A DNA stretch of 64,000 nucleotides from Schmidtea polychroa (taxonomy: Eukaryota). Location: contig CM097885.1 of NCBI GenBank assembly GCA_044892525.1, forward strand, positions 9,984,001-10,048,000, read 5' to 3'. Under the pieces are notes generated by a model. The model was not told the DNA's origin and did not search any database. It saw nothing but the letters and a program-made list of their open reading frames with translations. Both the position numbers and the translations under genes were made by a program. Shown here piece by piece: positions 20,941 through 40,969 of this stretch (position 1 is the first letter of the stretch; each line of letters opens with the position of its first letter).

Positions 20941-21097
20941 TTTTATAAATATTTTTTTTATTGGATATATTAATTTTTGGTAGTTAAAACGTTTTTGATC
21001 TTAAATTTCCAAGAGTTGCCGTTGACCAATCACCTTAAAAATTTGTACAAGTACTAAATCGAGTATGCTGATCAATATTTCGTTAAAAAAAAATTTG

Positions 21098-21178: not shown

Positions 21179-21331
21179 TATGAAATAAGTTGTTAATGTG
21201 TGACTATTTATTGATGAAATTAATAATTAATTATTCATTTTCTCGACAACTACCACTCAGATCCATCTGAAAATTTAAATATATACTAAAATCAGTACAC
21301 TGAATCAGATTCCGTTGAAAAAAAAATATCG

Positions 21332-21413
21332 AAAAAAATTGACCAAAATCGAAAATTGAACCCGGTACTCCCGGTGATAAAATTGAAGCCTATTCCCACT
21401 CCGCTATAATGGC
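21332..21413 (-). ncRNA. tRNA-like Pol III unit 3
   Basis: A box TAGCGGAGTGG (21406-21396), degenerate B box GGTTCAATTTT, T7 terminator. 3' flank similar to unit 2 at a ~234-bp period. Confidence 0.55.
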
Positions 21414-21469
21414 TTACATAATATATTTAATTAATCCTATTTTGTGTGTGTAAATTTTAATATATAAAA

Positions 21470-22771: not shown

Positions 22772-23853
22772 ATGTCTCTCTATTGGAGATGTGAAAGTTG
22801 TAATTGTCAAGTTACAAGACATCATAAAGCAAGTCATCTAAAAACTAAAAAACATATAGGAGGCGACATGATTCCACGAGCCGGAGGCGACCTACAATCT
22901 TCAAAAGTGACATCTTCAATATTAAAACCTTTTACTACAGAAAAATATCCAGGTGAAAGACATTTATTTAAACACAACTATACCGGACCAGGAACAAGAT
23001 TAGATATTAGATTAGATGAAAATAATAATCCCAAACAAGGAGAAGAACCAATAAATAGAATCGACCAAGCAGCTTTAAAACATGATATTGCTTACAATTC
23101 AGAAGATCTTAGAGATAGACATGTTGCAGATGTTAATTTAATACATGATTTAAATAGTATGCAAAATCCATCAACCCAAGAAAAGATTCAAAGAGCTCTA
23201 GTTAAATTAGCAATGAAAGGTAAGATTTTCATAGGTGCTAGTTTACCAAGGATGGCAAAAGATGTTGCTAATAAAAAGATTATTGAACAAGCAGACGCTG
23301 AAAGATCCCTCGAGAATATATCCAAGACTAGTTTATTAACCCCAACAGAATCACAAATAAAATATGCCAACGAATTACACCATGAATTTAGAAAAAATAA
23401 AAAATATTTAAAAGTTCAAGTACATGAAAAAGATCAAACATGGTCTGCAGATTTAGTCTTTATGCCAACCAAATCATCAGACCCTGAAAAATATAAAATA
23501 ATTTTAACTGTAATAGATTTATATACAAGATTTGCCTTTGCAAGGTGTTTAGAAAATAAAACAGGATATTCCATTACAGAAGCATTTGAAAATATATTTG
23601 AAGAACATCAAAGAATTCCAAAATATTTATGGAGTGATAAAGGAACAGAATTTTATAACAAAGTTTTTACAAAGTTTTTAAATGAAAATGATATTAAATT
23701 ATATTCAACAGAAAACGAAGGAAAAGCAGTTGTGGTTGAAAGATTAAATAGAACATTAAAAAATAAAATGTGGAAATATTTTACGGCTATTGGAAAACAA
23801 AAATGGAACAATGAATTGTTACAAAAGATTGTAAATGAATATAATAATGATGT
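22772..23853 (+). pseudogene. Outer integrase, 5' part: zinc finger + parvovirus-like phospholipase A2 domain + retroviral-type DDE core
   Basis: CxxC..H..H; NYTGPGT..IDQAALKHDIAY..RHVAD; WSADL, LWSDKGTEF, VERLNRTLK. Interrupted after YNND by the inner element. Confidence 0.92.
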
Positions 23854-25571
23854 AGTAGTAGGATTGGAGCTCCCCAGATCAGGAGCTCCCCGCATCACAT
23901 ATACCCCCTCCCCCCCCCCCCCCGGGAAAAAAAAATTTTTTTTTTTAATTTTTTGTTTTAATTAATTGGCCTGGCGGGCTCACACTTTTTTTCATCCCAA
24001 AAATTAATGTTCCCACCAACGGATTTTATTGGATGATACCTCATCTTAAAGCCCAGTCCAAGACCTTTCGAATGAGCTATAGGTATCATATATATCTTTA
24101 ATAGTTTTAATGTTATTAACAATTGATGACCACCATCTTTTCAACGTTAAATTATTATTATTTTCCAAAATATTATTAATTGGCCTGGCGGGCTCACACT
24201 TATTTTCATCCCAAAAATTAATGTTCCCACCAACAGATTTTATTGACCGATACCTCATCTTAAAGCCCAGTCCAAGACCTTTCGAATGAGCTATAGGTAT
24301 CATATATATCTTTAATAGTTTTAATGTTATTAACAATTGATGACCACCATCTTTTCAACGTTAAATTATTATTATTTTCCAAAATATTATTAATTGGCCT
24401 GGCGGGCTCACACTTTTTTTCATCCCAAAAATTAATGTTCCCACCAACAGATTTTATTGACCGATACCTCATCTTAAAGCCCAGTCCAAGACCTTTCGAA
24501 TGAGCTATAGGTATCATATATATCTTTAATAGTTTTAATGTTATTAACATTTGATGACCACCATCTTTTCAACGTTAAATTATTATTATTATTCAAAATA
24601 TTATTAATTGGCCGGGCGGGGACATACTTTTTCTCATCCCAAAAATTAATGTTGCCATTATCCGAATTTATTAATCGATAGCTTATTTTGAAGCGTAGTC
24701 TAAGACCTTTCAATTGAGCCATAGAACGTATCATCATCATTAACATCGGCAAAGTTATTAAAGTTTTACCGAGACCATTTTTCAAGGTCATTTATTTTTC
24801 AAAATATTATTTTCAAGGTCAAGGTCAAGGTCATTTATTTTTTCAAGGTCATTTATTTTTTCAAGGTCATTTATTTTTTCAAGGTCATATTTTAAAATTT
24901 AAATGTACAGAGTTCCCGACAACGATAATTATTCAACGATAGCTCATTTTAAAGCCCAATGCAAGACCTTTCGATTGATTCATAGAAGGTATCATCATCA
25001 TTATTATTGACAAAGTTATTAACAATTGATGACCACCATCTTTTCAACGTTAAATTATTATTATTTTCCAAAATATTATTAATTGGCCGGGAGGGCCCCT
25101 ACTCTTTTTCATCCCAAAAATTAATGTTCCCATTATCCGAATTTATTGGACGATACCTCATCTTAAAGCTCAGTCCAAGACCTTTCGAATGAGCCATAGA
25201 AGGTATCATCATCATTAATATTAACAAAGAGAATGACTCACCCAATGACTCACCCAACGATGTCTAATATTTTTAGAACGATGACTCATCAAGGTCATTC
25301 CCAAGGTCATATGACTCATCAAGGTCAAGGTCATTTTTTTTAAATTTAATTTTTTGTTTTAATTAAGTAATCTTTTTATTTTCAAGGTCATTTAATTTTC
25401 AAGGTCATTTAATTTTCAAGGTCATTTAATTTTCAAGGTCATTTAATTTTCAAGGTCATTTAATTTTTCAAGGTCATTTAATTTTCAAGGTCATTTACTT
25501 TTCAAGGTCATTTAATTTTTCAAGATCATTTATTAAAATAATTATTATTTTCTAAGTTTTTAGTTTCTAAG

Positions 25572-25622
<51 letters not shown>

Positions 25623-25822
25623 CATATATACACCGAGTCTATCCGACAAGATATTCTGTCCCCCTATGGGTACTGCTCACAAATGTACTACTCACATTCA
25701 ACAAGTCACAAATGTACTACTCACACTCAACAAGTCACATGGGTACTGTTCACAAAGCTACTGGTAAAAATATTCAAGACAAAACTTTCTAAATTCTAAA
25801 TATTATTCTTTAAATATACACT
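23854..25822. repeat. Inner Polinton left TIR with 214-bp tandem units and TCAAGGTCA arrays
   Basis: Reverse complement of 39179-40969, with one more 214-bp unit than the right TIR. Confidence 0.95.
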
Positions 25823-26179
25823 AAAATTTATTAACACATTCACATTCATCATCTCCACAGTTCATAACATTTTCAACAACATGATCTATACAATCCCTAT
25901 ATACACACGGTTCAGTATCCGTAAATTCCTCCATAGGTTCATCAATTTCTTGAATGCTTTCCTCATCATCTTGAGTGTTTTCTTCATCTGTTTCATCAAA
26001 TTCCGAATCTTCACTCTCTGCTACCCAGCCGATATTTAATGAGTTTGTAACAGATAATATGTCCTCAATTTTCACACCAGATATTTCTGCTAACTTTTCC
26101 AATAAAAAGTTTATTATAAATTCTAAATATTAAATAATTCGATAATTAACTAATCATATTAACCTTTTTCTGTAGTCAT
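25821..26179 (-). CDS. Small acidic protein, two exons (predicted intron 26123-26163)
   Basis: ATG ACT ACA GAA AAA G|GT...TTTAG|AA gives MTTEKEFIINFLLEKLAEISG, in frame with ORF 25821-26102. The donor context is conserved in the relic at ~1141. Confidence 0.7.
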
Positions 26180-26275
26180 TATTAGTATTTTAAAACTATA
26201 GTATATATTTGTTTATAGAAAATATAGAATATAAGCGAAAACAAATATGACTAAATACATTTATTAAATACAACA

Positions 26276-26695
26276 TTAAAATAACTGTGAAAGTCTAGCA
26301 GACATAATTTTCCAAATTGGAGAATACACATCATTATTATCAACTTTATATCCTTGGATTGTAATTGTTATATACCAATTTTCGTTTTCTTTGAAACTGA
26401 TTTCATCAAAGGAATCATAAAATTTTGCATATCGGTTGTTGAAAAATGCATTTTGATTGCATGATAGATTCGTATTCAACCTTTTGAAAACATCATCTAT
26501 GGTTTTAATATCTAACATTGAAAGCGTGCCGGTTAAGAATTGAAATTGGGTAGGAATTAGCTTGATCGGTGACACCAATTTCATATTGATTTCTTCTTTT
26601 AAAAAATACATCTTGTAGTTGTGGAACATTTGAACAGGTTGTACAAGTTCTGGAACTACTTTTGGTTTTTCAGTGCTTGAAATTTTCTTGGTCAT
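26276..26695 (-). CDS. Hypothetical accessory protein (139 aa)
   Basis: Open ORF with upstream GGTATAAAAAC; a homologous relic at 362-952 supports that it is coding. Confidence 0.8.
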   Translation of the reverse strand: MTKKISSTEKPKVVPELVQPVQMFHNYKMYFLKEEINMKLVSPIKLIPTQFQFLTGTLSMLDIKTIDDVFKRLNTNLSCNQNAFFNNRYAKFYDSFDEISFKENENWYITITIQGYKVDNNDVYSPIWKIMSARLSQLF

Positions 26696-26803
26696 TGTGA
26701 ATTATGATTAAAATGAAATGGTACAGGGTTTTTATACCTATGACTATTGTTTATCATCCAATCAGATTGCAGTATGTTTTTGTTTTAATTGAATGATAAA
26801 TAA

Positions 26804-27268
26804 TTAATTAAGTGATAATAAAAAATCTAAAAATTCTTTTCCTTCAATTATTGATTTAATTTCAGATATGATATTATCAACTATACTTTTGTAATCAATA
26901 TTTTTTATTCCAAGAATTACTATCTTACCGCTAGCGAATATATTTACACACATAGGGTTATATTTTATATATCTCAAAGCTGGAAATAATTCTGGTTCAT
27001 AAAAGCATGGTATTAATTTAGCTAATTTATTTAAATTACAAGAAAAACCTATATCGGAAGTTACGGTTATCGATTGTATTTCTAAATCATAAACATTATA
27101 TTCACTAGCTTTGATTATTTCCTTACACCCCATAATTCTACATTTACCAGTTTTGAAATATATTATTGGATATTTATTACTTCTATTGATAAGTTGTTGT
27201 GGTTTCCCTATTGGAAATATCATTTTTGATACATCAGTTTTTGCCCTGTAATTTATATTTGAAAGCAT
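26804..27268 (-). CDS. TATA-binding-protein (TBP)-like protein
   Basis: Two TBP repeats: IYFKTGKCRIMG and IQSITVT...NLNKLA...YEPELFPALRY...NIFASGKIVILG. Confidence 0.92.
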   Translation of the reverse strand: MLSNINYRAKTDVSKMIFPIGKPQQLINRSNKYPIIYFKTGKCRIMGCKEIIKASEYNVYDLEIQSITVTSDIGFSCNLNKLAKLIPCFYEPELFPALRYIKYNPMCVNIFASGKIVILGIKNIDYKSIVDNIISEIKSIIEGKEFLDFLLSLN

Positions 27269-27373
27269 TTTAATGAAATAATTTTAAAAACTTTGATATA
27301 TATAGGTATTTAAAAACAGAGTTCATTTAAATTATCAATATAAACAATAATTATATAGTTTAAATTTTAAAAA

Positions 27374-28012
27374 ATGGAATTACGAAATGATGCAGTATAC
27401 CAAATCGTTGGTCCAAGTGGTAGCGGGAAAACTTTATTTGTTTGTAAATTACTAAAATCAAATTTGTTTAAAACAAAATTCAACAATATTTATTGGCATA
27501 GGGGCGCCGACGAAGAACACGGATTGACGCAATCAAGTTTCTGTCAGTTGAAAAACATGAAAATAGTAAAGGGCTTTGATAAAAACTGGTCAAGTCGTTT
27601 GAAGAAAGATGATGTCATCATTATCGATGATTTGTATCAAGAAGCCAATAAAGAAAAGGACTTTAATAATTTATTCACAAAAATCAGCAGACATGTTGGT
27701 GTAACAGTTATTTTCATAACACAAAATCTATTTCATCAAGGTGGTGCACATCGAACACGTAATTTAAATGTACAATATTTAGTTATTTTCAAGAATCCTA
27801 GAGATGCAACTGTCATTGATTTTCTTGGACGACAAGCATACCCTAATAACCGTAATTTTCTTATCAGTGCATTTCAAGATGCCACGAAAATACCGCATGG
27901 GTATATATTTCTCGATTTCACACAACAATGCCCTGATGATATACGGGTAAAAACAGATATTTTCAACCCAAAAGGTGCCATGGTATATAAACAAAGTTCA
28001 AAACAAAGTTGA
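27374..28012 (+). CDS. Genome-packaging ATPase (A32/FtsK-like)
   Basis: Walker A GPSGSGKT, Walker B IIIDD, LFTKISRH, FITQNLF. Confidence 0.95.
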   Translation: MELRNDAVYQIVGPSGSGKTLFVCKLLKSNLFKTKFNNIYWHRGADEEHGLTQSSFCQLKNMKIVKGFDKNWSSRLKKDDVIIIDDLYQEANKEKDFNNLFTKISRHVGVTVIFITQNLFHQGGAHRTRNLNVQYLVIFKNPRDATVIDFLGRQAYPNNRNFLISAFQDATKIPHGYIFLDFTQQCPDDIRVKTDIFNPKGAMVYKQSSKQS

Positions 28013-28025
28013 AAACATATAAATC

Positions 28026-28520
28026 ATGTTTTCAAAAACAAGGATATCGGGTAAAAAACAACCAAAAGTTCCACCAACAACTAGTTATACTCCATCTAAA
28101 GATCTTATTACAGAAAATTTTCCTGCAATGAATCTTATTTCGAAAAATCCTAAACCTAAACCTAAAAGTAAAACCACTAAGAAAGTAAAAGTTGTTAAAA
28201 ATCATCGGAGTTTCCCGTTTTTCAATACATTGTTAAAGGCACCAAGTATGAAAAGAAACAGTATTTTGCAATCATTTCCAAATTATGTTGTCGATGATTT
28301 ACTCGATATTATACTTAAAGTAGTCAAAGGCAAGATTAAAATCAGTAAATCTAAAAAGCAATTATTGAGTAAACATAGGAAACCTTTGCTATCATTAGTA
28401 AATAATAAAAATCGTCAACAAATGAGAAAAATTATATATAAACAACAAGGGGGATTTATCGGTGCATTGATACCTTTAGCAATATCATTATTAGGTGGAA
28501 TAATAGGAAGTCGATCATAA
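28026..28520 (+). CDS. Basic virion core-like protein with a C-terminal hydrophobic/amphipathic helix
   Basis: Lys-rich; ends QQGG|FIGALIPLAISLLGGII, a GG protease-site-like motif typical of Polinton core proteins. Confidence 0.7.
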   Translation: MFSKTRISGKKQPKVPPTTSYTPSKDLITENFPAMNLISKNPKPKPKSKTTKKVKVVKNHRSFPFFNTLLKAPSMKRNSILQSFPNYVVDDLLDIILKVVKGKIKISKSKKQLLSKHRKPLLSLVNNKNRQQMRKIIYKQQGGFIGALIPLAISLLGGIIGSRS

Positions 28521-28523
28521 ACA

Positions 28524-28751
28524 ATGGGTGCTAATCCTTCATTACCAGACATTAAATTTAATATTAAATCTTCTTGTTGTAATGGAGAAGATTTGGACGA
28601 ACCCGGAAGACGAAGCCGGTTTTGGTGGAGTGGCAAAATTAAGGAAAAGAGTTCCGAATTCGAAAAAGGAAACACAGAAGTGGTTATCAGACCAGCTTGC
28701 GTACAGTTTGAACAAACCAATGCGGAAACGATTCCCAACAAGAGCATATAA
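28524..28751 (+). CDS. Putative overprinted myristoylated microprotein (75 aa)
   Basis: MGANPS (MGxxxS) plus a CC pair. First ATG after the upstream stop; overlaps the integrase 5' end in another frame. Confidence 0.4.
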   Translation: MGANPSLPDIKFNIKSSCCNGEDLDEPGRRSRFWWSGKIKEKSSEFEKGNTEVVIRPACVQFEQTNAETIPNKSI

Positions 28752-29640
28752 AACATATGGAATAAATGATTTATGGCAAATGGATTTGATGGAGATGATA
28801 CCCTATTCGAAAATTAACAATGGGTATAAATATATTTTAACATGTATTGATGTATTCAGTCGGTTTGCCCGAGCAATACCCGTCAAGGCAAAATCTGCAG
28901 ATGAAATGTCCAAAGCTGTTAATCATTTATTTAAAGATGGACATCCTAAAAACTTGCAAACTGATTTAGGTATTAATATTATTATTATTAATATTATTAT
29001 TATTATTATTTTAGGTAAAGAATTCTACAACAGTAAAGTCAAGCAAATCCTCAATAAATTGAAAATAAACCATTACTCAGTACATTCTCAATACAAAGCT
29101 GCTCATGTTGAAAGATTTAACCGAACTTTGAGAGATAGATTAAAGAAATTATTCGTGCATCAAGGTAATAAAAAATGGGTATTGGTTTTACCAAAAATAA
29201 TAACCAGTTATAATCACTCATCACATCAAGGACTGAGTGGATTAAGGCCGATTGATATCACGTCAAAAACAATCTATTCTAAAAAACCTGAAAAAATTAC
29301 AAAACCGAAATATAAAGTAGGTGACCATGTTAGAATTAGTAAAATTAGTGCATCACCATTTATTAAAAATTTCGATACAAATTGGAGTGATGAAGTCTTT
29401 GTAATTTCAAAAATAAATACTAAACAGAATCCTGTAATGTATGTCATCAAAGATAATGATAACAATATTGTACAAGGAAAATTTTATGAGCAGGAATTAC
29501 AAGTTATTCCTCCCCCAAAAGTATTTAGAATTCAGAAGATTTTGAAAACTAAAAATAAAGGCAAGGATAAACAATACTATGTCAAATGGCATGGTTATCA
29601 AAACCCATCATGGATATCAGAAAAGGATCTAGTAAAGTGA
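28582..29640 (+). CDS. Retroviral-type integrase with C-terminal chromodomain; 45-bp intron 28970-29014
   Basis: WQMDL, QTDLG^KEF after intron removal, VERFNRTL, YNHS.H, PKYKVGDHVRISK, YYVKWHGY..PSWI. Confidence 0.95.
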   Translation: MEKIWTNPEDEAGFGGVAKLRKRVPNSKKETQKWLSDQLAYSLNKPMRKRFPTRAYKTYGINDLWQMDLMEMIPYSKINNGYKYILTCIDVFSRFARAIPVKAKSADEMSKAVNHLFKDGHPKNLQTDLGINIIIINIIIIIILGKEFYNSKVKQILNKLKINHYSVHSQYKAAHVERFNRTLRDRLKKLFVHQGNKKWVLVLPKIITSYNHSSHQGLSGLRPIDITSKTIYSKKPEKITKPKYKVGDHVRISKISASPFIKNFDTNWSDEVFVISKINTKQNPVMYVIKDNDNNIVQGKFYEQELQVIPPPKVFRIQKILKTKNKGKDKQYYVKWHGYQNPSWISEKDLVK

Positions 29641-30653
29641 ATTTTTATACTATTTTACCAAGCAATAGTTGCCCGCTTATTCATCCAGATAATCAAGCCA
29701 GTAAATTCATGGTCAATCTCCAGAATCCGATTTCTTTAAATGGGGACTGGGAAGTTGCACTGCAAGATTTTACATTCGTGTACAATACATTCCCATTTTA
29801 TAGTCAATGTAAGATTGATTTCAAAAGGAATGCTATGAAAACATGTAGTGGTATCTTTATTATCAGTAATTATGATAAAACATATCATATTCCGAATCAA
29901 ATATTAGATCAGCACTGCTCTATGTTTTACAAGGATGGATTAAATATCAGTTGTGATTTTAAACCATTTACAATAACATTCGAATATATTGAAGATGCCA
30001 GACGAATGGGTTGCAATAAGTTGAAAAATGAAGTTATGGAAACAGAATATTTATTACGCTTTGATCTATTTGAAGCAAACAGTGTAATGAGAGAAGAAAT
30101 CAAAATATCAGTGTCGTATAATAATGAAGTTGAAGAATCATTCACCTTCGCTGACGAATTATATATTGATAAACTTGATGTGTTACTTAAATATTTAAAG
30201 TATAATTGTTCACACATATTTAAAAGTTTGGACATTGTGAAAGATTTGTTATTTACCTTCAGTTTGAATGATGACATTTGCGAAGTTACATTTGATAAAA
30301 ATTTGACAAATACACTTGGATTAGAGAAGCAGCAATATCGGGAAAAATCGGCTGGTATACGTAAACCAAGAATACTTGAACATCATCAACAAATGTTCAT
30401 ATATACTAATATTATTGAGCCTATAATAGTTGGTGATTCCAGTGTTCCTCTATTGAAATCGGTGTGGATTGGAAAATATGAACATGATGAAGTTGTCAAT
30501 ATAAATATAGATAATCCCATGTATTTACCAATTTCAAGCTCATGTATAAACAATATAGAAATAAATATTCGTGACGATAGTGGAAAACTTATAAACTTCC
30601 CAAAAGACTCAAAAACTCATTTGACACTACATTTTCGTAAAGTAGATGGCTAA
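29586..30653 (+). CDS. Minor capsid (penton-like) protein; start codon uncertain
   Basis: FYTILPSNS..HPDN, WEVAL, MFIYTNIIEP.IVGD...PLL, IEINIRDDSG, LTLHFR. Confidence 0.9.
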   Translation: MAWLSKPIMDIRKGSSKVNFYTILPSNSCPLIHPDNQASKFMVNLQNPISLNGDWEVALQDFTFVYNTFPFYSQCKIDFKRNAMKTCSGIFIISNYDKTYHIPNQILDQHCSMFYKDGLNISCDFKPFTITFEYIEDARRMGCNKLKNEVMETEYLLRFDLFEANSVMREEIKISVSYNNEVEESFTFADELYIDKLDVLLKYLKYNCSHIFKSLDIVKDLLFTFSLNDDICEVTFDKNLTNTLGLEKQQYREKSAGIRKPRILEHHQQMFIYTNIIEPIIVGDSSVPLLKSVWIGKYEHDEVVNINIDNPMYLPISSSCINNIEINIRDDSGKLINFPKDSKTHLTLHFRKVDG

Positions 30654-31008
30654 TTCCGATATTATTAGTATGTATAGTGATAGCCAATCTGGTGGTGAAT
30701 TACCATATTTTATTGGTAAACAGTATGGATCAGGTTGGTTAAAAACAATAGGGAGATTTGCACTTCCCATTCTTAAACGTATTGGTAGTTTTGGCATGAA
30801 AACTGCAAAAGATGTGATTATGAATGAACAGAAAATATTACCATCCCTAAAAACAAATGCTTTAGCTGAGTTAGGGAAGGTTCTACCTGGAGTTGCTGGT
30901 ATGTTTCAAAAAGATACACCTCCAGTCCCAGCTCCAAAACGTAAAGGGCATGGAATATCGCGTATAAACAAACGAATGAAAGGACATGGAACTATATTTG
31001 CAAAATGA
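30646..31008 (+). CDS. Small basic core-protein precursor
   Basis: QSGG.LPYF.G.QYGSG..RFALPILK and repeated KGHG motifs; lies directly upstream of the MCP. Confidence 0.75.
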   Translation: MANSDIISMYSDSQSGGELPYFIGKQYGSGWLKTIGRFALPILKRIGSFGMKTAKDVIMNEQKILPSLKTNALAELGKVLPGVAGMFQKDTPPVPAPKRKGHGISRINKRMKGHGTIFAK

Positions 31009-32228
31009 TTTGTGGTAAATCCGAATTATGTATATTTGATAGACCGTCGCCCCAGGCAGTAATAGAATTTGGTGCCTTTGAGGAAGTTTTTCCTATGAAT
31101 TCAATTACTGATAGTAGAAATGATATCGAGTTTTATATTAATGGTTCGCAAACTGAATATTTAGATTTGAACGATACTTTATTGACTGTTCAGATCAAGG
31201 TTGTAGATAAAGATAGAAAGGTTTTGGATGCCAATGCTGATGTATTACCAAACAATTTCATGTTTCATACTCTGTTTAAAGATGCAGTGTTGGGATTTAA
31301 TAATATCAAGATTGAGGGTGGAAATAATACATTCATTCACAAGGCTTTGATAGAAACTATTTTAAATTACAATTCAGATACTAAAAATACCTGTCTTACA
31401 CCTATGGGTTATGCAGCAGCAGATGATGAAAGAAAAAAGTGGGTTAAAGGCTCAAAATCATTCACTATGTGCTCATCATTACAACTTGATTTTATGGATC
31501 AACCGAAATATTTACTACCGGGAGTTAATATACATATTAGACTGAAAAGATCTGATTCTGCATTGTCTCTTACTAGTGCAACTGGTGCACCAATATGTCA
31601 ATTAGTTGATGCAAAATTATTGGTGAGAAGAGTTCGAGTAGACCCGTCAGTATTAGCTGGTCATCAATTGGGGCTTAATTCAAAACATGCAATTTATCCT
31701 TTAAAAACAAAGGAAATTGTACAATTTGCTATTGCTAAAGGTGCTTCATCATTCTATAAAGAACAAATATTTGGTGACAGAAGAATGCCTAATTTTATTC
31801 TGGTAACATTTCAAAGTGAAACGCAATATAATGGATCGTATACTGCTTCCAGCTCAATTTTCAAAAATTTTGGTGTTACTTCATTGACTTTATCGAAAAA
31901 TACTGATTATAGAGAAACATATACTCAAGATTTCGAGAATGATAATTACTGTGCGACATATATGCAGAGTATTGTTAGAAATCTGGGTTATTTAGATAAA
32001 AACTTGAATTGCGGAATAACTCTTGAAGAATTTAAAAGCAAATACCCATTTTTCACATTTGTTCTAGCTCCCGATTTTGATTTAAATCAGAGTCAATTAC
32101 CACAAAACGGGAATTTACGACTGGATATAAAGTTTGCAAAGGCCATTACTGAACCAGTACATGTTATAATATATGGAGTATTTGAAAATGAAGTTCAAAT
32201 TACTGCAAATAGAACCGTGCTAGTATAA
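31005..32228 (+). CDS. Major capsid protein (hexon-like double jelly-roll)
   Basis: KSEL.IF..P..Q, IEFYI.G...EYLDL, QPKYLLPGV, L.VRRV, GNLRLDIKF. Confidence 0.93.
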   Translation: MICGKSELCIFDRPSPQAVIEFGAFEEVFPMNSITDSRNDIEFYINGSQTEYLDLNDTLLTVQIKVVDKDRKVLDANADVLPNNFMFHTLFKDAVLGFNNIKIEGGNNTFIHKALIETILNYNSDTKNTCLTPMGYAAADDERKKWVKGSKSFTMCSSLQLDFMDQPKYLLPGVNIHIRLKRSDSALSLTSATGAPICQLVDAKLLVRRVRVDPSVLAGHQLGLNSKHAIYPLKTKEIVQFAIAKGASSFYKEQIFGDRRMPNFILVTFQSETQYNGSYTASSSIFKNFGVTSLTLSKNTDYRETYTQDFENDNYCATYMQSIVRNLGYLDKNLNCGITLEEFKSKYPFFTFVLAPDFDLNQSQLPQNGNLRLDIKFAKAITEPVHVIIYGVFENEVQITANRTVLV

Positions 32229-32640
32229 ATGTATACAGAAACACCAAAAAGTTGTCATGGAGTAAGTTTTTCAATACTGTTTAATTTATTAAAGTAGTTC
32301 TGTTCAGGTCAATAGAATTGGAAAACAGATATTGGGAAATGAATTTGTAGGAGTTTTTCCTCTCGATAAAATCCCATATTTGAGCAATAATCAAGCCATA
32401 ATCGTCAATACTCAATCGTCTCATCTTGGTGGAGAACATTGGATTGCTATATATGTGAAACCTAGTAATATATTCGTGTTCGATCCTATGGGTTTCTATT
32501 ACCCTGCTTTGTTGGTATCAAAACTACAAACAATGGGGAAACCTATTGTATATAATAAAACAATGTTTCAAAATCCCTTGACACAAACATGCGGTCAACA
32601 TTGTTTAGCTTGGTTGTTGTATAAAAAATTTGATGTTTAA
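32229..32640 (+). CDS. Adenain-like cysteine protease; predicted intron 32262-32307
   Basis: FVGVFP.D, GEHWIA, FDPMG, QNP..QTCGQHC. ATG exon 32229-32261 with a GTAAGT donor joins in frame at TTCAG|32308. Confidence 0.88.
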
Positions 32641-32657
32641 TAAATGTATCCTTTCCT

Positions 32658-33135
<478 letters not shown>

Positions 33136-33218
33136 AATATCCAAATAAAGACTACACAATCATTGTGCATGCACAAAGTCATGACTAACAAAGATGTGTA
33201 ATCCCATTTGATACCATT

Positions 33219-33304
33219 TGATTGGCTGATAGAGGAAAAAGTATTCAGGAATGTGTCTTAATTCTGATTGGTTGAGACATGGAAATATTCATGTTCTATA
33301 TAAA
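33219..33304 (+). promoter_or_regulatory. Pol II promoter: two inverted CCAAT boxes plus a TATA box
   Basis: TGATTGG at ~33219 and ~33265, TATATAAA at 33297-33304, ATG at 33365. Confidence 0.65.
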
Positions 33305-33364
33305 CATTGACAAATTCCAAATTCATCACAATTTATCAAAATTTTCAATTTCTGATTTTTCAAA

Positions 33365-33908
33365 ATGTCTAACAATAACAACAACATATTAAGAAGTCTA
33401 TTGACTACCGGTAATTTTATTATTTATTTATTTATTATATTTTATTCTTTATTTTTTAGATGTGTTCGATTGGTATCAAGTTACTGAGGACGAAAGAATT
33501 TTGAATGTTGATAGGATTTTCGGTAAATTTAAATATTTTATTTTTTATGAAATTATTATTTTATTTAGAACCTATTATAATTAGCGACGATGATGATGTC
33601 GTATTTATTGGGCAAACTAATGCCCCAGTTTCCTGTAATGTTTTTAATGAACAAAGTAAATTTATTTTATTTTAGTATATTATTTTTTAAAAATCATTTT
33701 AGTGTTTAATGTTGACATGGACGCTGAAATCGATGTTCCAATTAATAATGATTCTATTGAGGAGATGAATAATGCACTGACTTCTATCGATGAGCTGAAT
33801 TATGTGGATAATACAATCGAGGAGCTTGTTAATGTGGATAATGCCCTCACTTCTATTGAGGAGGTTGCTGATAATGAATCAGATTCCGACATGGAATCAC
33901 GATGTTAG
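33365..33908 (+). CDS. Four-exon acidic protein (~133 aa) with SIM-like motifs
   Basis: Exons 33365-33410, 33460-33522, 33569-33655, 33703-33908. Three GT..AG phase-1 introns of 49, 46 and 47 bp give a continuous frame. Confidence 0.8.
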
Positions 33909-34062
33909 TATTTATTTATTTTTATATATTTATTTTTTTTTTAAAAACCTTGTAAATTTCTTAAATACTTTTTAAACATTTTCTTTAAAAACTTATTTAT
34001 AAAAACTTATTATGAAAATGAAGAAAATATTATGTTGAAATTGAAAATGTTATGTTGACTAA

Positions 34063-34166
34063 ATGATGAAAATATTATGATGAAGAAAATGATGAAAATA
34101 TTATGATGAAGAAAATGATGAAAATATTATGATGAAGAAAATGATGAAAATATTATGATGAAGAAA
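34063..34166. repeat. 4 x 26-bp tandem repeat
   Basis: ATGATGAAAATATTATGATGAAGAAA x4. Confidence 0.9.
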
Positions 34167-34292
34167 ATGTTTAAAAAGTATTTAAGAAACAATAGTTTTA
34201 AAATATTCCTTGTAGTTTGCAATGAGCAACTACATTAGTTAAAATAATAATAATAATAATAATAATATTAAAAATAGTAATAAAAATATATC

Positions 34293-34683
34293 TTGTAGTC
34301 TGCAGTGAGCATGCAGCTACATATCTCTTTTATCATGATTGCCCCAATAAATGTAGTCTGCAGTGAGCATGCAGCTACATCAAACTAATTATTTATTACG
34401 TAATACATACCCTTTATTAAATGTGTCTAAATGCAGCTGCGTCAAACTAAATATTTATTACGTAATACATACCCTTTATTAAATGTGTCTAAATGCAGCT
34501 GCGTCAAACTAAATATTTATTACGTAATACATACCCTTTATTAAATGTGTCTAAATGCAGCTGCAACAAACTATTTATTACGTAATAATTAACCCTTATT
34601 AAATATAGTCTGCATGCAGCTGCATCAACTATTTATTATGTAATAATTATAATCTTTAAATGTAATCTGCATGCAGCTGCATC
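34293..34683. repeat. Array of ~56-62-bp units with palindromes TATTACGTAATA and GCAGCTGC
   Basis: 62-bp period at 34381, 34443, 34505, plus degenerate units on both sides. Confidence 0.88.
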
Positions 34684-34869
34684 AATAATGATAATAATGA
34701 TAATAATAATAATAATAATAATAAAATCACACATTTATAGTTTACAAGACTTTATTAATATAAATACAATTTCATGATTAATATTAATTGATAAATATAA
34801 TTAACAGGCAAATTATATCCACATTACTGCCAGGCTTCAACTGGTCACTCAAATTTATGTCACAAAGTG

Positions 34870-37800
34870 ATGAAAAAATATTATGGTCGTAAATTTTATG
34901 GCATCAAGTACTACATATGCCCAATATGCGAGACTTCCCATAGCATTAAATATTTAGAGTTTTACAGTATACATAAATCCCATTTAAATCAGTTCTCTTT
35001 AAATAAAAAGGATTTATTTAACAAATTGCGAAATACCGCAAAACCTATAATTAAAACTAATGTAAATAATACAAAACCTGTAAATAATAATACAAAACCT
35101 GTAAATAATAATACAAAACCTGTAAATAATATTACAAAACCTGTAATTAATAATAATACAAAACCTGTAAATAATATTACAAAACCTGTAAATAATAATA
35201 CAAAACATGTAAATAATATTACAAAACCTGTAAATAATAATAATACAAAACCTGTAAATAATATTACAAAACCTGTAAATAATAATACAAAACATGTAAA
35301 TAATATTACAAAACCTCTAATTAATAATGTTATTAATGTAAATAATAATTTAAAAAGACCTGCTGTTAGTATTGGGTCTGATGCTCCCTCTAAAATTAAT
35401 AAATTAGAACAAATAACTGTGGTTAATAATATTCAAGTAGGCGGTTCAGTCGATATTGACGATGAACCTGAAATCGAAATTGATTTTAAGGGGGTTCGAA
35501 AGAATCTAAGATTTAATGTAGAAAAGGATAACATCATTCAAATATCCATAACCGATAAAATCGTTAATAAGTTAAAACATGAAATAATCAGAATGGGGTC
35601 GGTGAAAATACAATTCTCTGTATTGATTCAATTTGAAAAAGATGGTGAAATTAAAGATAATTTCTTCTCGAATAGGGCAGAGGCTTTTTCAGATAGTTTT
35701 CTAAGTGAGGGGGTTCACAAATTAAATAATAAAATAGAAAAATTCACATATTTGGGTAGTGGATGGCGGGTTGTTAAAATCAAAGAAATAGATTTTATAT
35801 TAACAAAATTTACACATATGAATAGGCTAGCTGGACATAGTTACATCCCCACCCCATCATCTTTAAAATCTAAAAATGCAATAGTAAATGTTAAAAACAC
35901 CGATGATATGTGCTTTATATATAGTATTTTAGCACTTTTAAAACGTAATGTCGTACATATAAATAGAAATAGAGTTAGTTCCTATCAAAATTATCTTGAC
36001 GAGTTAAATTTTGACCCCATTTCAGACTGTCCAATGAAACTATGTGATATTCCTAAATTCGAGATGAAAAATAAGGATTTAAATTTAGCAATAAATGTTT
36101 TAACTTATAGAACAACCCCTGCTAAGCCTTTTGAAAATATAGTTGACGATAATTATATTCCACATCATCCTCAATTAGATATTATTCACCGATCTAAGGT
36201 TATAGGTGGTGAACCCATATATTTACTTTTATTGGAAGACGGTGATAATTTCCATTATACTGCAGTTTTTAACTTACAAAGACTAATGAATTGTCGCTCT
36301 AGCAGTGAATGTGACGTTAGACTTCAAGTAAACTGGTGCCCCCATTGTCTTAACGGATTTAGACATAAAAATGCATTTGATATTCATGTCGCCTTATGCA
36401 TTAAAAACCAGATAGGTACTACTTTATACACGCTACCCAATGATAAAAATTTAATTTTTCAAAATTATGCGAAAACCATAACCCCACCATTCGTGATATA
36501 TGCAGACTTTGAATCAATTTTACCGGGGGATATAATACACCATCAAAAGCATTTGCCAATAACAGCAGGTTTATTATTAATAAATAATTATAATAACTCT
36601 AAATTTTATTATGAGTTTGTTGGGGATGATTGCATCTTATCTTTCTTGCGTAAGGTGGAGGAAATTGCTATGACAATTGTCCTGCCATATTACGAAATTA
36701 ATGGGAAAAAGCCCATGCAAACCTTGTCTTTCACTGAAGAGCGGGCCTTTCGTGATTCCAGAACCTGCTACCTTTGTAAAAAATTCATTAAGAATAGAGT
36801 TAGGGATCATTGTCACTTTTCAGGTAAGTATCTTGGTGCTGCCTGTAGGAAATGTAATGTTTCTCGACGAATTCAGAAACAGTTACCTGTGGTTTTTCAC
36901 AATTTGAGGGGGTATGATCTTCATCATATTTTGAAGTATGGTTTGAATAATTTTCCTTCTTGGGAATTAAATATTATTCCGACCACTACTGAGAAATTCA
37001 TCTCTCTTATCGCGTACATTAACAAATTGTCTGTTCGTTTTATTGACAGCATGCAGTTTGTTAATTCATCTTTAGCAAAAGCAGTTAAGACTCTTTCCGA
37101 TCTGCCTTTAACTTCTTCTGTTTTCGATGGCGCAATTGTTCGAGCCAAAGGTATCTTTCCTTATGACTTTGCCACATCTCTTGAGGTTCTGGAATCGACT
37201 CTTGAATTGCCTCCTATTTGGGATTCTGTGTCTAATGATGAATATGCATTAGCCCAAGTTATTTGGACTCAGCAAAACTGCAACAACATGTTAGATTACA
37301 TGTTAATCTACCTTAAATTAGACGTGTTTCTCCTCGCAGACTATTTTCAACAATTCCGTGAAAAGGCCATTGCTTACAATGGTCTTGAGCCTCTTAATTT
37401 CTATGGCATTCCCGGTATGTCTTGGGCCTCTGCGCTTATGACATTAACGGAACCCATTGAACTTCTGCAGGACATGGAAATGTTTAATTTCTATGAAGGA
37501 GGGATACGGGGTGGGTTAACATTTGTTAACAAACATTATGTTGCAAGTTCTGAAGACACAGAACTCTTGTATATTGATATTAATAACTTGTATGGTTGGG
37601 CCTTAAGCCAAAATCTGCCTTATGCTGACTTTGTTTGGGTGTATGATGATCTTGATTCTGTCTTGAATGAATGTATGAATGCTGATATCGATAACCTTCC
37701 ATATGGCTATACTATGGAGGTAGATATCGATATACCTGTTTGTTTGCATGACTTTCTGAATGATTTTCCTCTTGCTCCGGAAAAGATGTGCCCGCCAAAT

Positions 37801-38949
37801 TCTAAAGTTGAGAAGCTGATGCTCACGCATTGGCCGAAGAAGAACCATGTTCTTCATTGGCGACTTCTCAAGTTGTATATAGAATTGGGGGCTATTATTA
37901 AAAATGTACATAGAGCAATCAAATTTAAGCATGCACCCATTTTCAAATCTTACATAGACAAAAACACTAATTTGAGAGCCAATTCTACATGCGAATTATA
38001 TAGGGATCTATACAAATTATTTAATAATAGTCTGTATGGGAAATCCGTAGAAAACCTTAAAAAACGGATGAATTTGAGGCTATGCAATTCAGCTGAAAAG
38101 ATGATTGTATATGCTTCAAAGCCGACTTTCAAGAAATCTATCAAAATTGATGATGACTTGATTGCTGCACATCTATATAAGGATTCTATATGTTTAGACA
38201 GGCCTAGTTACATTGGCCAAACGGTGCTAGACCTGTCTAAACTGAGGATGTACCAGTTACAGTATAAAGAATTGGCTAAATATAGAAATGAATTTAAATG
38301 TGAGATAAATATCGTTGCCGGCGATACTGACTCCTTTTTTCTTGAGGTTAGGCACTGTAAGCTTGACATTCGTGACAATCTTTTAGACACTTCCAACTAT
38401 GACCCTGCACATCCCTTATACTCTAGAAACCTTGATTCTGTGATAGGTAAATTTAAAGATGAAAGTAAAGGTCTAGGGTATAAGGAATGGGTTTTCTTAA
38501 GACCCAAGTGCTATAGTTTGTTAGGGGCTAAAGATCATTTAAAAGCAAAAGGAGTCAGGTTAATAGGTACAGAAATTAGGCACGATTCATATTTAGAATG
38601 CTACAATAACAACGTAGTATTTTCTGTGCCACAAAGTAGGATAGGGACGCGGAACCATCAATTGTACACATTTAAAAACAATAAAATCGCGTTGACAAAC
38701 AATGACGACAAGCGGTTTTGGGTGGGGAAAAATTCCAGTCTCGCATTTGGTCATTATTTAGCACTAGATGATATAAATGATGATCAAATATTTGAAGAAG
38801 TTGGGCCACTATTCGGAAGATTAAGTCCAGATTTTGTTTCTGGTGATGAGGAAGTGGGTCCACTTTTCAATGGTTTAAGTCCAGATTTCGATTCTGGTGA
38901 TGATCCTAATGATAAAAGAGATATAGATGATATTTTATTGTCAGACTAA
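34870..38949 (+). CDS. Protein-primed family B DNA polymerase (pPolB) of the inner element; frame open from 34801, possibly spliced
   Basis: YADFES, FHNLRGYD, FIDS, KGIFPY, YIDINNLYG, KLFNNSLYGK, GDTDS, KCY, AKGV; endonuclease-VII-like CxxC..DHCH..CxxCN insert. Confidence 0.97.
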   Translation: MKKYYGRKFYGIKYYICPICETSHSIKYLEFYSIHKSHLNQFSLNKKDLFNKLRNTAKPIIKTNVNNTKPVNNNTKPVNNNTKPVNNITKPVINNNTKPVNNITKPVNNNTKHVNNITKPVNNNNTKPVNNITKPVNNNTKHVNNITKPLINNVINVNNNLKRPAVSIGSDAPSKINKLEQITVVNNIQVGGSVDIDDEPEIEIDFKGVRKNLRFNVEKDNIIQISITDKIVNKLKHEIIRMGSVKIQFSVLIQFEKDGEIKDNFFSNRAEAFSDSFLSEGVHKLNNKIEKFTYLGSGWRVVKIKEIDFILTKFTHMNRLAGHSYIPTPSSLKSKNAIVNVKNTDDMCFIYSILALLKRNVVHINRNRVSSYQNYLDELNFDPISDCPMKLCDIPKFEMKNKDLNLAINVLTYRTTPAKPFENIVDDNYIPHHPQLDIIHRSKVIGGEPIYLLLLEDGDNFHYTAVFNLQRLMNCRSSSECDVRLQVNWCPHCLNGFRHKNAFDIHVALCIKNQIGTTLYTLPNDKNLIFQNYAKTITPPFVIYADFESILPGDIIHHQKHLPITAGLLLINNYNNSKFYYEFVGDDCILSFLRKVEEIAMTIVLPYYEINGKKPMQTLSFTEERAFRDSRTCYLCKKFIKNRVRDHCHFSGKYLGAACRKCNVSRRIQKQLPVVFHNLRGYDLHHILKYGLNNFPSWELNIIPTTTEKFISLIAYINKLSVRFIDSMQFVNSSLAKAVKTLSDLPLTSSVFDGAIVRAKGIFPYDFATSLEVLESTLELPPIWDSVSNDEYALAQVIWTQQNCNNMLDYMLIYLKLDVFLLADYFQQFREKAIAYNGLEPLNFYGIPGMSWASALMTLTEPIELLQDMEMFNFYEGGIRGGLTFVNKHYVASSEDTELLYIDINNLYGWALSQNLPYADFVWVYDDLDSVLNECMNADIDNLPYGYTMEVDIDIPVCLHDFLNDFPLAPEKMCPPNSKVEKLMLTHWPKKNHVLHWRLLKLYIELGAIIKNVHRAIKFKHAPIFKSYIDKNTNLRANSTCELYRDLYKLFNNSLYGKSVENLKKRMNLRLCNSAEKMIVYASKPTFKKSIKIDDDLIAAHLYKDSICLDRPSYIGQTVLDLSKLRMYQLQYKELAKYRNEFKCEINIVAGDTDSFFLEVRHCKLDIRDNLLDTSNYDPAHPLYSRNLDSVIGKFKDESKGLGYKEWVFLRPKCYSLLGAKDHLKAKGVRLIGTEIRHDSYLECYNNNVVFSVPQSRIGTRNHQLYTFKNNKIALTNNDDKRFWVGKNSSLAFGHYLALDDINDDQIFEEVGPLFGRLSPDFVSGDEEVGPLFNGLSPDFDSGDDPNDKRDIDDILLSD

Positions 38950-39178
38950 ACTGTGATAAATGTTAATATATCTTTAATAAAACGTTTCTTCTACATTGTT
39001 GTATTATCTAAAATTTTTATTGAAAACTTGTTATAGTTTTCACATTTCTTACAAATGTTAAACACTTGTATAAATATATTTATTAATATTGATAAAGTTT
39101 TTATAAATCATGTTTAACTATTGAAAGAAATTTTTATTTGAAATGTATGTATGAGCTCACCACTACATATATGAGTTG

Positions 39179-39350
39179 AGTGTACATTTAAAGTATAATA
39201 TTTAGAATTTAGAAAGTTTTACCTTGAATATTTTTACCAGTACCTTTGTGAACAATAACCATGTGACTTGTTGAGTGTGAGTAGTACCCTTGCTAGCAAT
39301 ACCCATAGGGAGACAGAATATCTTGTCGGATAGATTATATATATATATAT

Positions 39351-39444
<94 letters not shown>

Positions 39445-40969
39445 CTTAGAAACTAAAAACTTAGAAAATAATAATTATTTTAATAAATGATCTTGAAAAA
39501 TTAAATGACCTTGAAAAGTAAATGACCTTGAAAATTAAATGACCTTGAAAAATTAAATGACCTTGAAAATTAAATGAGCTTGAAAATTAAATGACCTTGA
39601 AAATTAAATGACCTTGAAAATTAAATGACCTTGAAAATAAAAAGATTACTTAATTAAAACAAAAAATTAAATTAAAAAAAAAATGACCTTGACCTTGATG
39701 AGTCATATGACCTTGGGAATGACCTTGATGAGTCATCGTTCTAAAAATATTAGACATCGTTGGGTGAGTCATTGGGTGAGTCATTCTCTTTGTTAATATT
39801 AATGATGATGATACCTTCTATGGCTCATTCGAAAGGTCTTGGACTGAGCTTTAAGATGAGGTATCGTCCAATAAATTCGGATAATGGGAACATTAATTTT
39901 TGGGATGAAAAAGAGTAGGGGCCCTCCCGGCCAATTAATAATATTTTGGAAAATAATAATAATTTAACGTTGAAAAGATGGTGGTCATCAATTGTTAATA
40001 ACTTTGTCAATAATAATGATGATGATACCTTCTATGAATCAATCGAAAGGTCTTGCATTGGGCTTTAAAATGAGCTATCGTTGAATAATTATCGTTGTCG
40101 GGAACTCTGTACATTTAAATTTTAAAATATGACCTTGAAAAAATAAATGACCTTGAAAAAATAAATGACCTTGAAAAAATAAATGACCTTGAAAAAATAA
40201 ATGACCTTGACCTTGACCTTGAAAATAATATTTTGAAAAATAAATGACCTTGAAAAATGGTCTCGGTAAAACTTTAATAACTTTGCCGATGTTAATGATG
40301 ATGATACCTTCTATGGCTCAATTGAAAGGTCTTAGACTACGCTTCAAAATAAGCTATCGATTAATAAATTCGGATAATGGCAACATTAATTTTTGGGATG
40401 AGAAAAAGTATGTCCCCGCCCGGCCAATTAATAATATTTTGAATAATAATAATAATTTAACGTTGAAAAGATGGTGGTCATCAATTGTTAATAACATTAA
40501 AACTATTAAAGATATATATGATACCTATAGCTCATTCGAAAGGTCTTGGACTGGGCTTTAAGATGAGGTATCGGTCAATAAAATCTGTTGGTGGGAACAT
40601 TAATTTTTGGGATGAAAAAAAGTGTGAGCCCGCCAGGCCAATTAATAATATTTTGGAAAATAATAATAATTTAACGTTGAAAAGATGGTGGTCATCAATT
40701 GTTAATAACATTAAAACTATTAAAGATATATATGATACCTATAGCTCATTCGAAAGGTCTTGGACTGGGCTTTAAGATGAGGTATCATCCAATAAAATCC
40801 GTTGGTGGGAACATTAATTTTTGGGATGAAAAAAAGTGTGAGCCCGCCAGGCCAATTAATTAAAACAAAAAATTAAAAAAAAAAATTTTTTTTTCCCGGG
40901 GGGGGGGGGGGGGAGGGGGTATATGTGATGCGGGGAGCTCCTGATCTGGGGAGCTCCAATCCTACTACT
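39179..40969. repeat. Inner Polinton right TIR
   Basis: Reverse complement of the left TIR; ends CCTACTACT. Confidence 0.95.

What the first reader, a model, noticed from the sequence alone, without database searches (positions are those of the whole stretch)
28965..29017. Intron apparently born from a duplicated AGGT site plus an (ATT)n microsatellite, inside the integrase catalytic motif
Seen: a 45-bp GT..AG segment made almost entirely of ATT repeats, flanked by the 8-bp direct repeat TTTAGGTA. It splits TDLG^KEF next to the second catalytic Asp. It is in frame, so retention adds a 15-aa Ile-rich insert. Inference: a snapshot of intron gain, and possibly a splicing switch controlling integrase activity.
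Basis: partly seen in the sequence, partly recalled or inferred. Interest (0 to 1): 0.7.

Follow-up and report, generated by a model that had tools for sequence, protein, structure and literature searches.

The report
Mini-intron in a Polinton integrase gene
A virus-like jumping element in an animal genome has a 45-base, host-style intron beside the active site of its integrase gene; related elements carry an insert at the same spot while most relatives have none, so it looks like an established intron gained at a ready-made splice site rather than a brand-new one or a proven switch.

Summary
28970-29014 is a 45-nt GT..AG, ATT-rich segment between two TTTAGGTA copies, four bases after the second catalytic Asp codon of the integrase of a 17.1-kb Polinton with intact core frames. 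All 120 listed full-length homologues lack it.

It is most likely a real spliceosomal mini-intron (~0.8; splicing inferred, not shown). The element has five other predicted 36-49-nt introns. Relatives at 92% and 75-78% identity leave the motif at the same point into Ile-rich tails. So it is not unique to this copy and not newborn.

The 8-bp repeat is weak evidence of origin: four unrelated introns of this element would give 8-11 bp at this site. The site is more telling, since intronless relatives carry TTTAGGTA exactly there, once per gene. Duplication plus (ATT)n filler stays plausible (~0.5).

A splicing switch is unsupported (~0.1): the 15-residue read-through is not seen in relatives.

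Animal Polinton core genes are described as intronless, but this scan has noted intron-bearing Polintons before, here and in other genomes. New variant of a known kind.

The parts
28970..29014 (+). 45-nt predicted spliceosomal mini-intron, GT..AG, phase 1, ATT-rich, in frame and stop-free
   Evidence: absent from 120 of 120 listed homologues; insert at the same point in P0149, P0128, P0150, P0133
28965..28972 (+). first copy of TTTAGGTA (exon end plus 5' splice site)
29010..29017 (+). second copy of TTTAGGTA (3' splice site plus exon start)
28582..28969 (+). integrase exon 1 (129 codons plus one base), holds catalytic D68 (28783-28785) and D128 (28963-28965)
   Evidence: Pfam rve E 5e-8
29015..29640 (+). 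integrase exon 2, holds catalytic E (29110-29112) and the C-terminal chromodomain
28524..28751 (+). 75-aa reading frame (Met-Gly start, Cys-Cys motif) overlapping the integrase 5' end in another frame; its stop lies 219 nt before the intron
   Evidence: same relative frame in 18 of 31 loci examined
32262..32297 (+). predicted 36-nt (or 33-nt) phase-2 intron after the protease start codon, conserved in relatives that lack the integrase segment
   Evidence: one-base indels of family variants at 32268 and 32284 (table 4)
33411..33459 (+). predicted 49-nt phase-1 intron A1, polymerase leader
33523..33568 (+). predicted 46-nt phase-1 intron A2, polymerase leader
33656..33702 (+). predicted 47-nt phase-1 intron A3, polymerase leader
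33904..34807 (+). predicted 904-nt phase-1 intron between the leader exons and the long pPolB frame
   Evidence: frame arithmetic
26123..26163 (-). predicted 41-nt phase-1 intron B in a small acidic gene
23854..40969 (.). inner Polinton/Maverick, 17.1 kb: TBP-like gene, ATPase, integrase, putative minor and major capsid genes, protease, pPolB; terminal inverted repeats about 23854-25629 and 39388-40969, 96-98% identical
23848..23853 (+). left copy of the 6-bp target-site duplication TGATGT
40970..40975 (+). right copy of the 6-bp target-site duplication TGATGT

Best explanation
The segment is an ordinary host-type (U2, GT-AG) mini-intron that one sub-lineage of these Polintons gained in its integrase gene and has kept. 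Step 1 (shown): the D-L-G-K codons of intronless relatives can spell TTTAG|GTA, at once a 3' and a 5' splice consensus. Step 2 (inferred, about even odds): the intron arose when this 8-mer was duplicated around an AT-rich or (ATT)n filler, for example in repair of a staggered break, so both splice sites existed at once; otherwise a conventional AT-rich intron landed on this proto-splice site. Step 3 (inferred from protein read-throughs): the gain predates the split from a 92% relative and probably from a 75-78% group, and the body has since drifted in length and sequence. Step 4 (inferred): the host spliceosome removes it routinely, like the element's other 36-49-nt introns, giving a normal D-D-34-E integrase. 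That it is in frame and stop-free in this copy is incidental: ATT repeats read as Ile in this frame.
For: 120 of 120 listed full-length homologues and 32 of 32 metagenome loci that cover the motif (37 fetched) lack it. Only one of nine registers is GT..AG. Four other predicted phase-1 introns of 41-49 nt in the element all end TTTAG, have non-3n lengths and are needed for open frames. A 36-47-nt protease intron is shared with L005, L011, L012 and L013, which lack the integrase segment; one-base indels of family variants fall inside it (table 4; 12 of 17 rows shown). P0149 (92% over exon 1) reads through the same first six residues and then a different tail. P0128 and P0150 (two sources, 94% alike) both end GKIII, and P0133 ends GN. 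All these tails fit a GTA start. One origin for these rows is not rejected (p-AU 0.46). 5 of 32 intronless loci have TTTAG|GTA and 8 of 32 have AG|GT at the site; in L001 and L006 it is the only TTTAGGTA of the gene. The longest ATT run is 19 nt here against 4-9 nt in 8 comparison introns, where Ile-Ile-Ile occurs in 1 of 278 triples. Catalytic triad, core frames, inverted repeats and target duplication are intact.
Against: Splicing is inferred from sequence and comparison only. The relatives' inserts are known only as predicted proteins, without DNA, so their splice sites, lengths and true stops are unverified, and tails may end at contig edges. Clustering of truncation points alone is modest: 5 of 56 clusters end within D..D+4 (p 0.007), and another five-residue window also holds 5. 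The donor GTATTA departs from the GTAA start of most comparison introns. The repeat does not discriminate origin, and in Drosophila 25% of gained and 26% of conserved introns have flanking repeats of 5 bp or more (PMC3443670, passage). The tree is unresolved: only 10% of bootstrap trees have a single origin. The host's own intron consensus could not be measured because no whole genome is held.
Confidence: 0.78

Rival explanations
1. Regulated splice switch, as in the P-element third intron: splicing gives active integrase in some cells, and retention gives an inactive or interfering protein elsewhere. The overlapping upstream frame, which stops 219 nt before the intron, could also expose spliced messages to nonsense-mediated decay.
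For: The position is next to D128. The donor is non-consensus. Read-through is open in this copy, and the model keeps the fold with the insert as a low-confidence loop (pLDDT under 50 at 134-141, mean 89.5). Precedent: P-element IVS3 retention yields a repressor (PMC7776569, passages). The overlapping frame is conserved in 18 of 31 loci.
Against: The 15-residue insert is not conserved: P0149 does not return to the motif within 17 residues, and P0128, P0150 and P0133 end within 1-4 residues. Most relatives do without the intron altogether, including those with the overlapping frame. No regulatory element was identified. AlphaFold loops out insertions by default, so the model says little about activity.
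Confidence: 0.1
2. Not spliced: a microsatellite insertion with target-site duplication that disables, or is tolerated in, the integrase of a sub-family mobilised by integrase supplied from other copies.
For: The genome is rich in (ATT)n (38 arrays of 5 or more units in 64 kb), and 34 of the 45 nt match the element's own array at 32780 exactly. Any duplication of AGGT gives GT..AG ends whether or not it is spliced. P0126 and P0149 carry Asn at the otherwise invariant D90 and may be decaying copies.
Against: The length falls in the element's intron size class. The insert is shared by diverged lineages whose exon 1 stays conserved. In this copy exon 2 is intact, with the catalytic Glu, chromodomain and no stops.
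Confidence: 0.08
3. Parallel gains at a hot spot: the D-x-G-K codons form a latent donor in many Polinton integrases, and several lineages gained separate introns there.
For: The free tree needs 2 changes for six rows, and P0142 falls far away. Four spider gene models (P0287, P0288, P0316, P0329; NCBI, Trichonephila clavipes) break at the same motif in a distant integrase, so gene finders also read it as a donor. Parallel gains made up 43 of 90 new Daphnia introns (PMC4202315, abstract passage).
Against: One clade is not rejected (p-AU 0.46). The two firm groups sit in the same unresolved cluster and share Ile-rich tails. P0142 and P0154 have no tail beyond the motif and may be contig ends.
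Confidence: 0.25
4. Assembly or sequencing artefact in a low-complexity tract.
For: The segment is a simple repeat in a repeat-rich region.
Against: P0149, from a different record with 8% protein divergence, reads into the same start. Precise GT..AG ends, with both exon flanks matching homologues to the residue.
Confidence: 0.02

Closest known systems
Polintons/Mavericks of vertebrates and nematodes (PMC8097293; bioRxiv 10.1101/2022.07.12.499685; passages read)
   Same: Terminal inverted repeats, 6-bp target duplication, pPolB, retroviral-type integrase with chromodomain, ATPase, adenain-like protease, putative capsid genes.
   Different: Those papers report intronless core genes (introns only in nematode cargo genes). 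Here the integrase, protease and polymerase leader carry predicted mini-introns.
Intron gain at AGGT proto-splice sites by duplication or staggered-break repair (PMC3443670 and PMC4202315, passages; PMC3265369 and PMC4974935, search listing and abstract start only)
   Same: Short AT-rich intron on an AG|GT site with a 4-12-bp repeat shared with the flanking exon; intronless relatives show the single unduplicated site.
   Different: Here it is in a mobile virus-like element, the body is (ATT)n rather than duplicated exon or organelle DNA, and there is no allele-level presence/absence or cDNA evidence. It is not demonstrably recent.
Introner-bearing Maverick/Polinton-like proviruses of dinoflagellates (PMC11957031, passages)
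   Same: Spliceosomal-type introns inside integrated Polinton-like elements.
   Different: Those are copies of intron-generating transposons. This segment has no terminal structure and no second copy with its ends in the window; the only long match is a plain ATT array.
P-element third intron (IVS3) retention switch (PMC7776569, passages)
   Same: Intron inside the recombinase gene of a DNA transposon, whose retention would affect activity.
   Different: P-element regulation is proven and fixed in the family. Here no regulation is shown, the intron is absent from most relatives, and the retained product is not conserved.

Membership tests
Polinton/Maverick | [quoted passage not shown] | tested here: met
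   Repeats of about 1.6-1.8 kb, 96-98% identical; TGATGT on both sides
Polinton/Maverick | Retroviral-type DDE integrase | tested here: met
   Pfam rve; profile and fold matches to foamy-virus integrase; invariant D68, D128, E177
Polinton/Maverick | Protein-primed family B polymerase, packaging ATPase, cysteine protease | tested here: met
   Pox_A32 and Peptidase_C5 hits. The 1382-aa frame has no Pfam hit of its own but matches the outer element's DNA_pol_B_2 protein by tblastx and L013 at 49%
Polinton/Maverick | Double jelly-roll major and single jelly-roll minor capsid proteins | tested here: inconclusive
   Frames 30945-32228 and 29571-30653 are conserved in position in related loci but have no Pfam hit; the capsid labels are recalled, not tested by fold
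U2-type spliceosomal intron | GT..AG ends whose removal matches homologous proteins exactly | tested here: met
U2-type spliceosomal intron | Size, composition and 3' end like other introns of the same system | tested here: met
   45 nt against 36-49 nt; TTTAG end as in 4 of 4 phase-1 mini-introns. The comparison introns are themselves predictions
U2-type spliceosomal intron | Branch point | tested here: inconclusive
   Only a TTAAT 27 nt from the 3' end; three of four comparison introns show no such motif
U2-type spliceosomal intron | Removed from RNA | tested here: inconclusive
   No usable RNA data; see Tried and rejected
Intron gained by site duplication or staggered-break repair | Flanking repeat longer than the background from splice consensus | tested here: not met
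   8 bp observed; 8, 9, 10, 11 bp for the element's four phase-1 mini-introns and 6-12 bp for four protease introns if placed here
Intron gained by site duplication or staggered-break repair | Empty site in intronless relatives equals one copy of the repeat | tested here: met
   TTTAG|GTA in 5 of 32 loci (two distinct elements), once per gene in L001 and L006; the element's four other phase-1 mini-introns have repeats of 0-2 bp
Recently gained intron | Confined to one allele or copy, with close relatives empty | tested here: not met
   Shared with P0149 (92%) with a diverged body, and probably with a 75-78% group
Introner element | Many near-identical introns at unrelated sites | tested here: inconclusive
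   None in the 64-kb window apart from ATT arrays; the rest of the genome is not held
Regulated intron-retention switch (P-element type) | Tissue- or piRNA-dependent splicing with a functional retained product | not testable with these tools
   Needs RNA from tissues; the retained product is not conserved among relatives

The most novel reading that the evidence does not exclude
A Polinton sub-lineage turned a break-repair scar (a duplicated TTTAGGTA around (ATT)n) beside the integrase active site into a splice gate. Only cells that splice this weak mini-intron make active integrase; retention gives a dead or interfering enzyme; and the conserved overlapping upstream frame couples spliced messages to nonsense-mediated decay. 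The element could then express its other genes while integration stays under separate, host-dependent control. This would be a P-element-like switch in a virus-like element, with intronless sister lineages as natural controls.
Probability: 0.1. Interest if true: 0.72.

Novelty: new variant of a known kind. Interest (0 to 1): 0.4.

Why it matters
Core genes of animal Polintons are described as intronless, and intact copies are screened on that assumption (PMC8097293, passages). Mini-introns in integrase, protease and polymerase would make intron-blind pipelines call such elements broken or truncated, as P0128, P0133, P0149 and P0150 appear to show. The site offers a traceable case of intron gain: the empty proto-splice site survives in sister lineages, and a many-copy family could date the gain and follow the drift of the body. 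It also shows that an 8-bp flanking repeat can be pure splice consensus. If splicing were regulated, it would be a new control point for integration.

Tried and rejected
1. RNA test. No RNA holder listed (23 runs, all contigs). Four of the 23 were laid (X8, X13, X1, X5). No 28969^29015 joint is among the 15 shown of 479. The tool skipped the repeat covering the segment (note in the X5 row: 0 gaps, 0 joints, 17 loose ends dropped; X8: reads seem cut there). The two 'RNA?' runs cover 30 and 29 of 30 bins, intergenic parts included, so they may be DNA. No conclusion either way.
2. No whole genome is held, so family copies and host introns could not be counted.
3. IMG/VR: no relative with the window protein or P0128; 37 matches to a 17-nt pattern were chance, 0 of 37 encoding the integrase.
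4. P0126 (identical to P0149 over exon 1) jumps from residue 130 to 338-352. I first read this as splicing to a distal acceptor and then dropped it as evidence. 30 of 40 top homologues have His before that Gly, which gives no AG; a GGT microhomology deletion fits; and spliced gene models in the same collection make such jumps.
5. P0142 and P0154 were dropped from the firm set (no tail; P0154 is sister to uninterrupted P0005). Seven more flagged rows of 36-47% identity were dropped as motif variants or distant elements. Of 8 flagged among 137 new representatives, four are spider gene models, three are regex hits elsewhere, and P0347 has no tail.
6. The 34-nt match to the array at 32780 was not taken as a template source, because other ATT arrays match about as well.
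7. Single-sequence PDB search found nothing; the profile search did.
8. The 102-row careful tree did not finish; the quick tree was used, then a 25-row careful tree.
9. Literature. Searches listed no title or abstract start describing a spliceosomal intron in an animal Polinton integrase (0 papers). PMC10748475 and PMC12220804 (passages) mention only self-splicing introns; 10.64898/2026.10.09.758095 (passages) concerns a giant virus. Subscription journals, Repbase and all supplements were not seen and may hold such annotations. 'Planarian' was a guess; the host is not identified.

Full report
Setting. The window is AT-rich DNA (about 20-37% G+C per 2 kb) with an intronless ionotropic glutamate-receptor gene (5853-8561, minus), which points to an animal. 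The host is not identified and no whole genome is held. The finding lies in a 17.1-kb Polinton/Maverick at 23854-40969. It has 96-98% identical terminal repeats and a perfect TGATGT target duplication, and it is inserted in the integrase gene of a second Polinton (about 20450-51300). Its ATPase, integrase, putative capsid and polymerase frames each have only their terminal stop.

Observation. 28970-29014 is 45 nt, GT..AG, 43 of 45 A/T, phase 1, between two TTTAGGTA copies; only one of nine possible registers has GT..AG ends. It lies four bases after the codon of D128, one of three invariant catalytic residues in a 92-sequence alignment, in the motif that aligns to SDQG of foamy-virus integrase. 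The D-to-E distance is 49 with it and 34 without it. All 120 listed full-length homologues (best 120 of 2241 hits) are continuous here, as are all 32 of 37 metagenome loci that cover the motif.

Is it an intron? The element appears to use host-type mini-introns elsewhere. Three of 49, 46 and 47 nt, plus a 904-nt one, link four leader exons in frame to the polymerase; one of 41 nt sits in a small acidic gene. All are phase 1, and the four short ones end TTTAG and have non-3n lengths. I first read the leader as a separate gene; earlier notes on this genome suggested the polymerase link, which one search confirmed by frame arithmetic. A 36-47-nt intron after the protease start codon is shared with L005, L011, L012 and L013. 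Among the 12 of 17 indel rows shown for family variants, those inside reading frames are multiples of three or add up to three, while lone one-base indels fall between genes or inside this predicted intron (table 4). Those same relatives lack the integrase segment, so it is a later gain or was lost from them. The 45-nt segment matches this class in size, composition, phase and 3' end. All of these introns are predictions; none is shown in RNA.

Is it unique to this copy? No. Searches for shorter proteins and cluster members gave 248 aligned proteins of 250: 220 continuous, 14 not reaching the motif and 14 flagged, 7 of the flagged above 50% identity. P0149 (92% over exon 1) continues GINIII like the window and then differs, ending 17 residues after the Gly. 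P0128 and P0150, from two sources and 94% alike, both end GKIII; P0133 ends GN. In each, the residue after Gly needs a codon starting with A, as a GTA donor would give. The window with P0149/P0126 forms one supported group, and P0128/P0150/P0133 another. Both lie in one unresolved cluster; one origin is not rejected (p-AU 0.46) but appears in only 10% of bootstrap trees. Caveats: these are predicted proteins without DNA, tails may be contig ends (which at an ATT tract would still imply an insert), and truncation clustering alone is modest (5 of 56, p 0.007, with another window as crowded). The fair reading is an established intron with a drifting body, not a snapshot of birth.

How did it arise? 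The flanking repeat is TTTAG plus GTA, which is simply the element's 3' and 5' splice consensus. Each of the four other phase-1 mini-introns, placed at this site, would give a repeat of 8-11 bp, and four protease introns would give 6-12 bp. A review notes the same trap in Drosophila (PMC3443670, passage). The position is more telling. Intronless relatives spell TTTAG|GTA here in 5 of 32 loci, from two distinct elements; in L001 and L006 it is the only such 8-mer in about 1.1 kb, among 4 and 6 AGGT sites. The element's four other phase-1 mini-introns sit on sites with repeats of 0-2 bp. The body is also unusual: a 19-nt ATT run against 4-9 nt in eight comparison introns, and Ile-Ile-Ile, seen in 1 of 278 triples there, recurs in P0149 and P0128/P0150. 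Duplication of the site around an ATT filler, the staggered-break route described for Daphnia (PMC4202315, passages), is therefore a reasonable origin at about even odds against insertion at a favoured proto-splice site. The window holds 38 ATT arrays, so later expansion inside an AT-rich intron cannot be excluded. Four spider gene models break at the same motif in a distant integrase, showing that these codons look like a donor more widely; parallel gains remain possible.

Is it a switch? Retention would put 15 mostly Ile residues right after the strand that ends in D128. The AlphaFold model of the unchanged frame keeps the integrase fold (mean pLDDT 89.5; best match the foamy-virus intasome) and loops the insert out at low confidence, which does not decide activity. 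That an insert here would harm catalysis is my inference from general knowledge of integrases. The P-element third intron is the precedent (PMC7776569, passages). But no relative shows a read-through that returns to the motif, and most relatives lack the intron. A conserved 75-aa frame overlaps the integrase start and stops 219 nt before the intron (18 of 31 loci), which could tie splicing to nonsense-mediated decay; it also exists in intronless relatives, so this is speculation. I put a regulated switch at about 0.1.

Known and new. Intact vertebrate Mavericks and nematode Maverick core genes are reported as intronless (PMC8097293 and bioRxiv 10.1101/2022.07.12.499685, passages). Introners occur in dinoflagellate Polinton-like elements (PMC11957031, passages). 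Eight searches listed nothing on an intron in an animal Polinton integrase; subscription journals, Repbase and supplements were not seen. This scan has noted intron-rich Polintons, integrases included, in two other genomes and spliced polymerase leaders in this one; those notes are unchecked and are not counted as support. Gain at AGGT sites is a known route.

Verdict. Observation confirmed; most likely a real, established mini-intron (0.78); origin by site duplication plus ATT filler plausible but unproven; recency and regulation not supported. New variant of a known kind, interest 0.4.

Noticed in passing
window 28524-28751 (+): 75-aa frame starting Met-Gly with a Cys-Cys motif, overlapping the integrase 5' end, just behind an ATAAAC box; same relative frame in 18 of 31 loci. 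It looks like a lipid-modified small protein (recalled motif, untested).
   Followed up: partly
window 32257-32297 (+); L005 5603-5641, L011 5267-5313, L013 8484-8520: The protease start codon sits on a 5-nt first exon followed by a 36-47-nt intron conserved across relatives about 50-60% identical in protein.
   Followed up: yes
window 33365-34808 (+): Four leader exons join the pPolB frame in phase 1 without stops; exon 4 also ends in a stop if its donor is not used, which would give a short acidic protein.
   Followed up: partly
window 20450-51300: Outer Polinton of a different type (integrase with a phospholipase A2-like domain, DJR-like capsid, DNA_pol_B_2) whose integrase gene is split by the inner element and also has an in-frame stop further on.
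   Followed up: partly
window 26804-27283 (-): TBP-like gene (Pfam TBP, E 2.5e-15) inside the inner element, also present in L004, L013, L019 and L024; already noted many times by this scan.
   Followed up: no
P0126 (no DNA held): 92% relative whose protein jumps from residue 130 straight to residues 338-352; deletion, gene-model splice or real distal splice are all open.
   Followed up: partly
P0216 (no DNA held): Distant integrase (39%) whose read-through leaves the motif one base earlier, with Val-Ser, which fits a GTAAGT donor in phase 0: perhaps an independent intron next to this position.
   Followed up: no
window 32670-33140 (+): 470-bp (TTA)n array between protease and polymerase leader, and (ATT)n arrays at the inner ends of both terminal repeats.
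   Followed up: no
window 267-670, about 1150-1440, and 63720-63996: Decayed fragments of related elements: 67% and 71% DNA matches to the inner element; the 1150-1440 resemblance to the acidic gene was seen by eye only.
   Followed up: no
window 20620-21450 (+): Several short stretches in the outer element's left part resemble tRNA-type boxes by eye; no tRNA scan was run.
   Followed up: no
L002 1393-3460, L001, L003: These relatives carry two tandem copies of the putative minor capsid gene.
   Followed up: no
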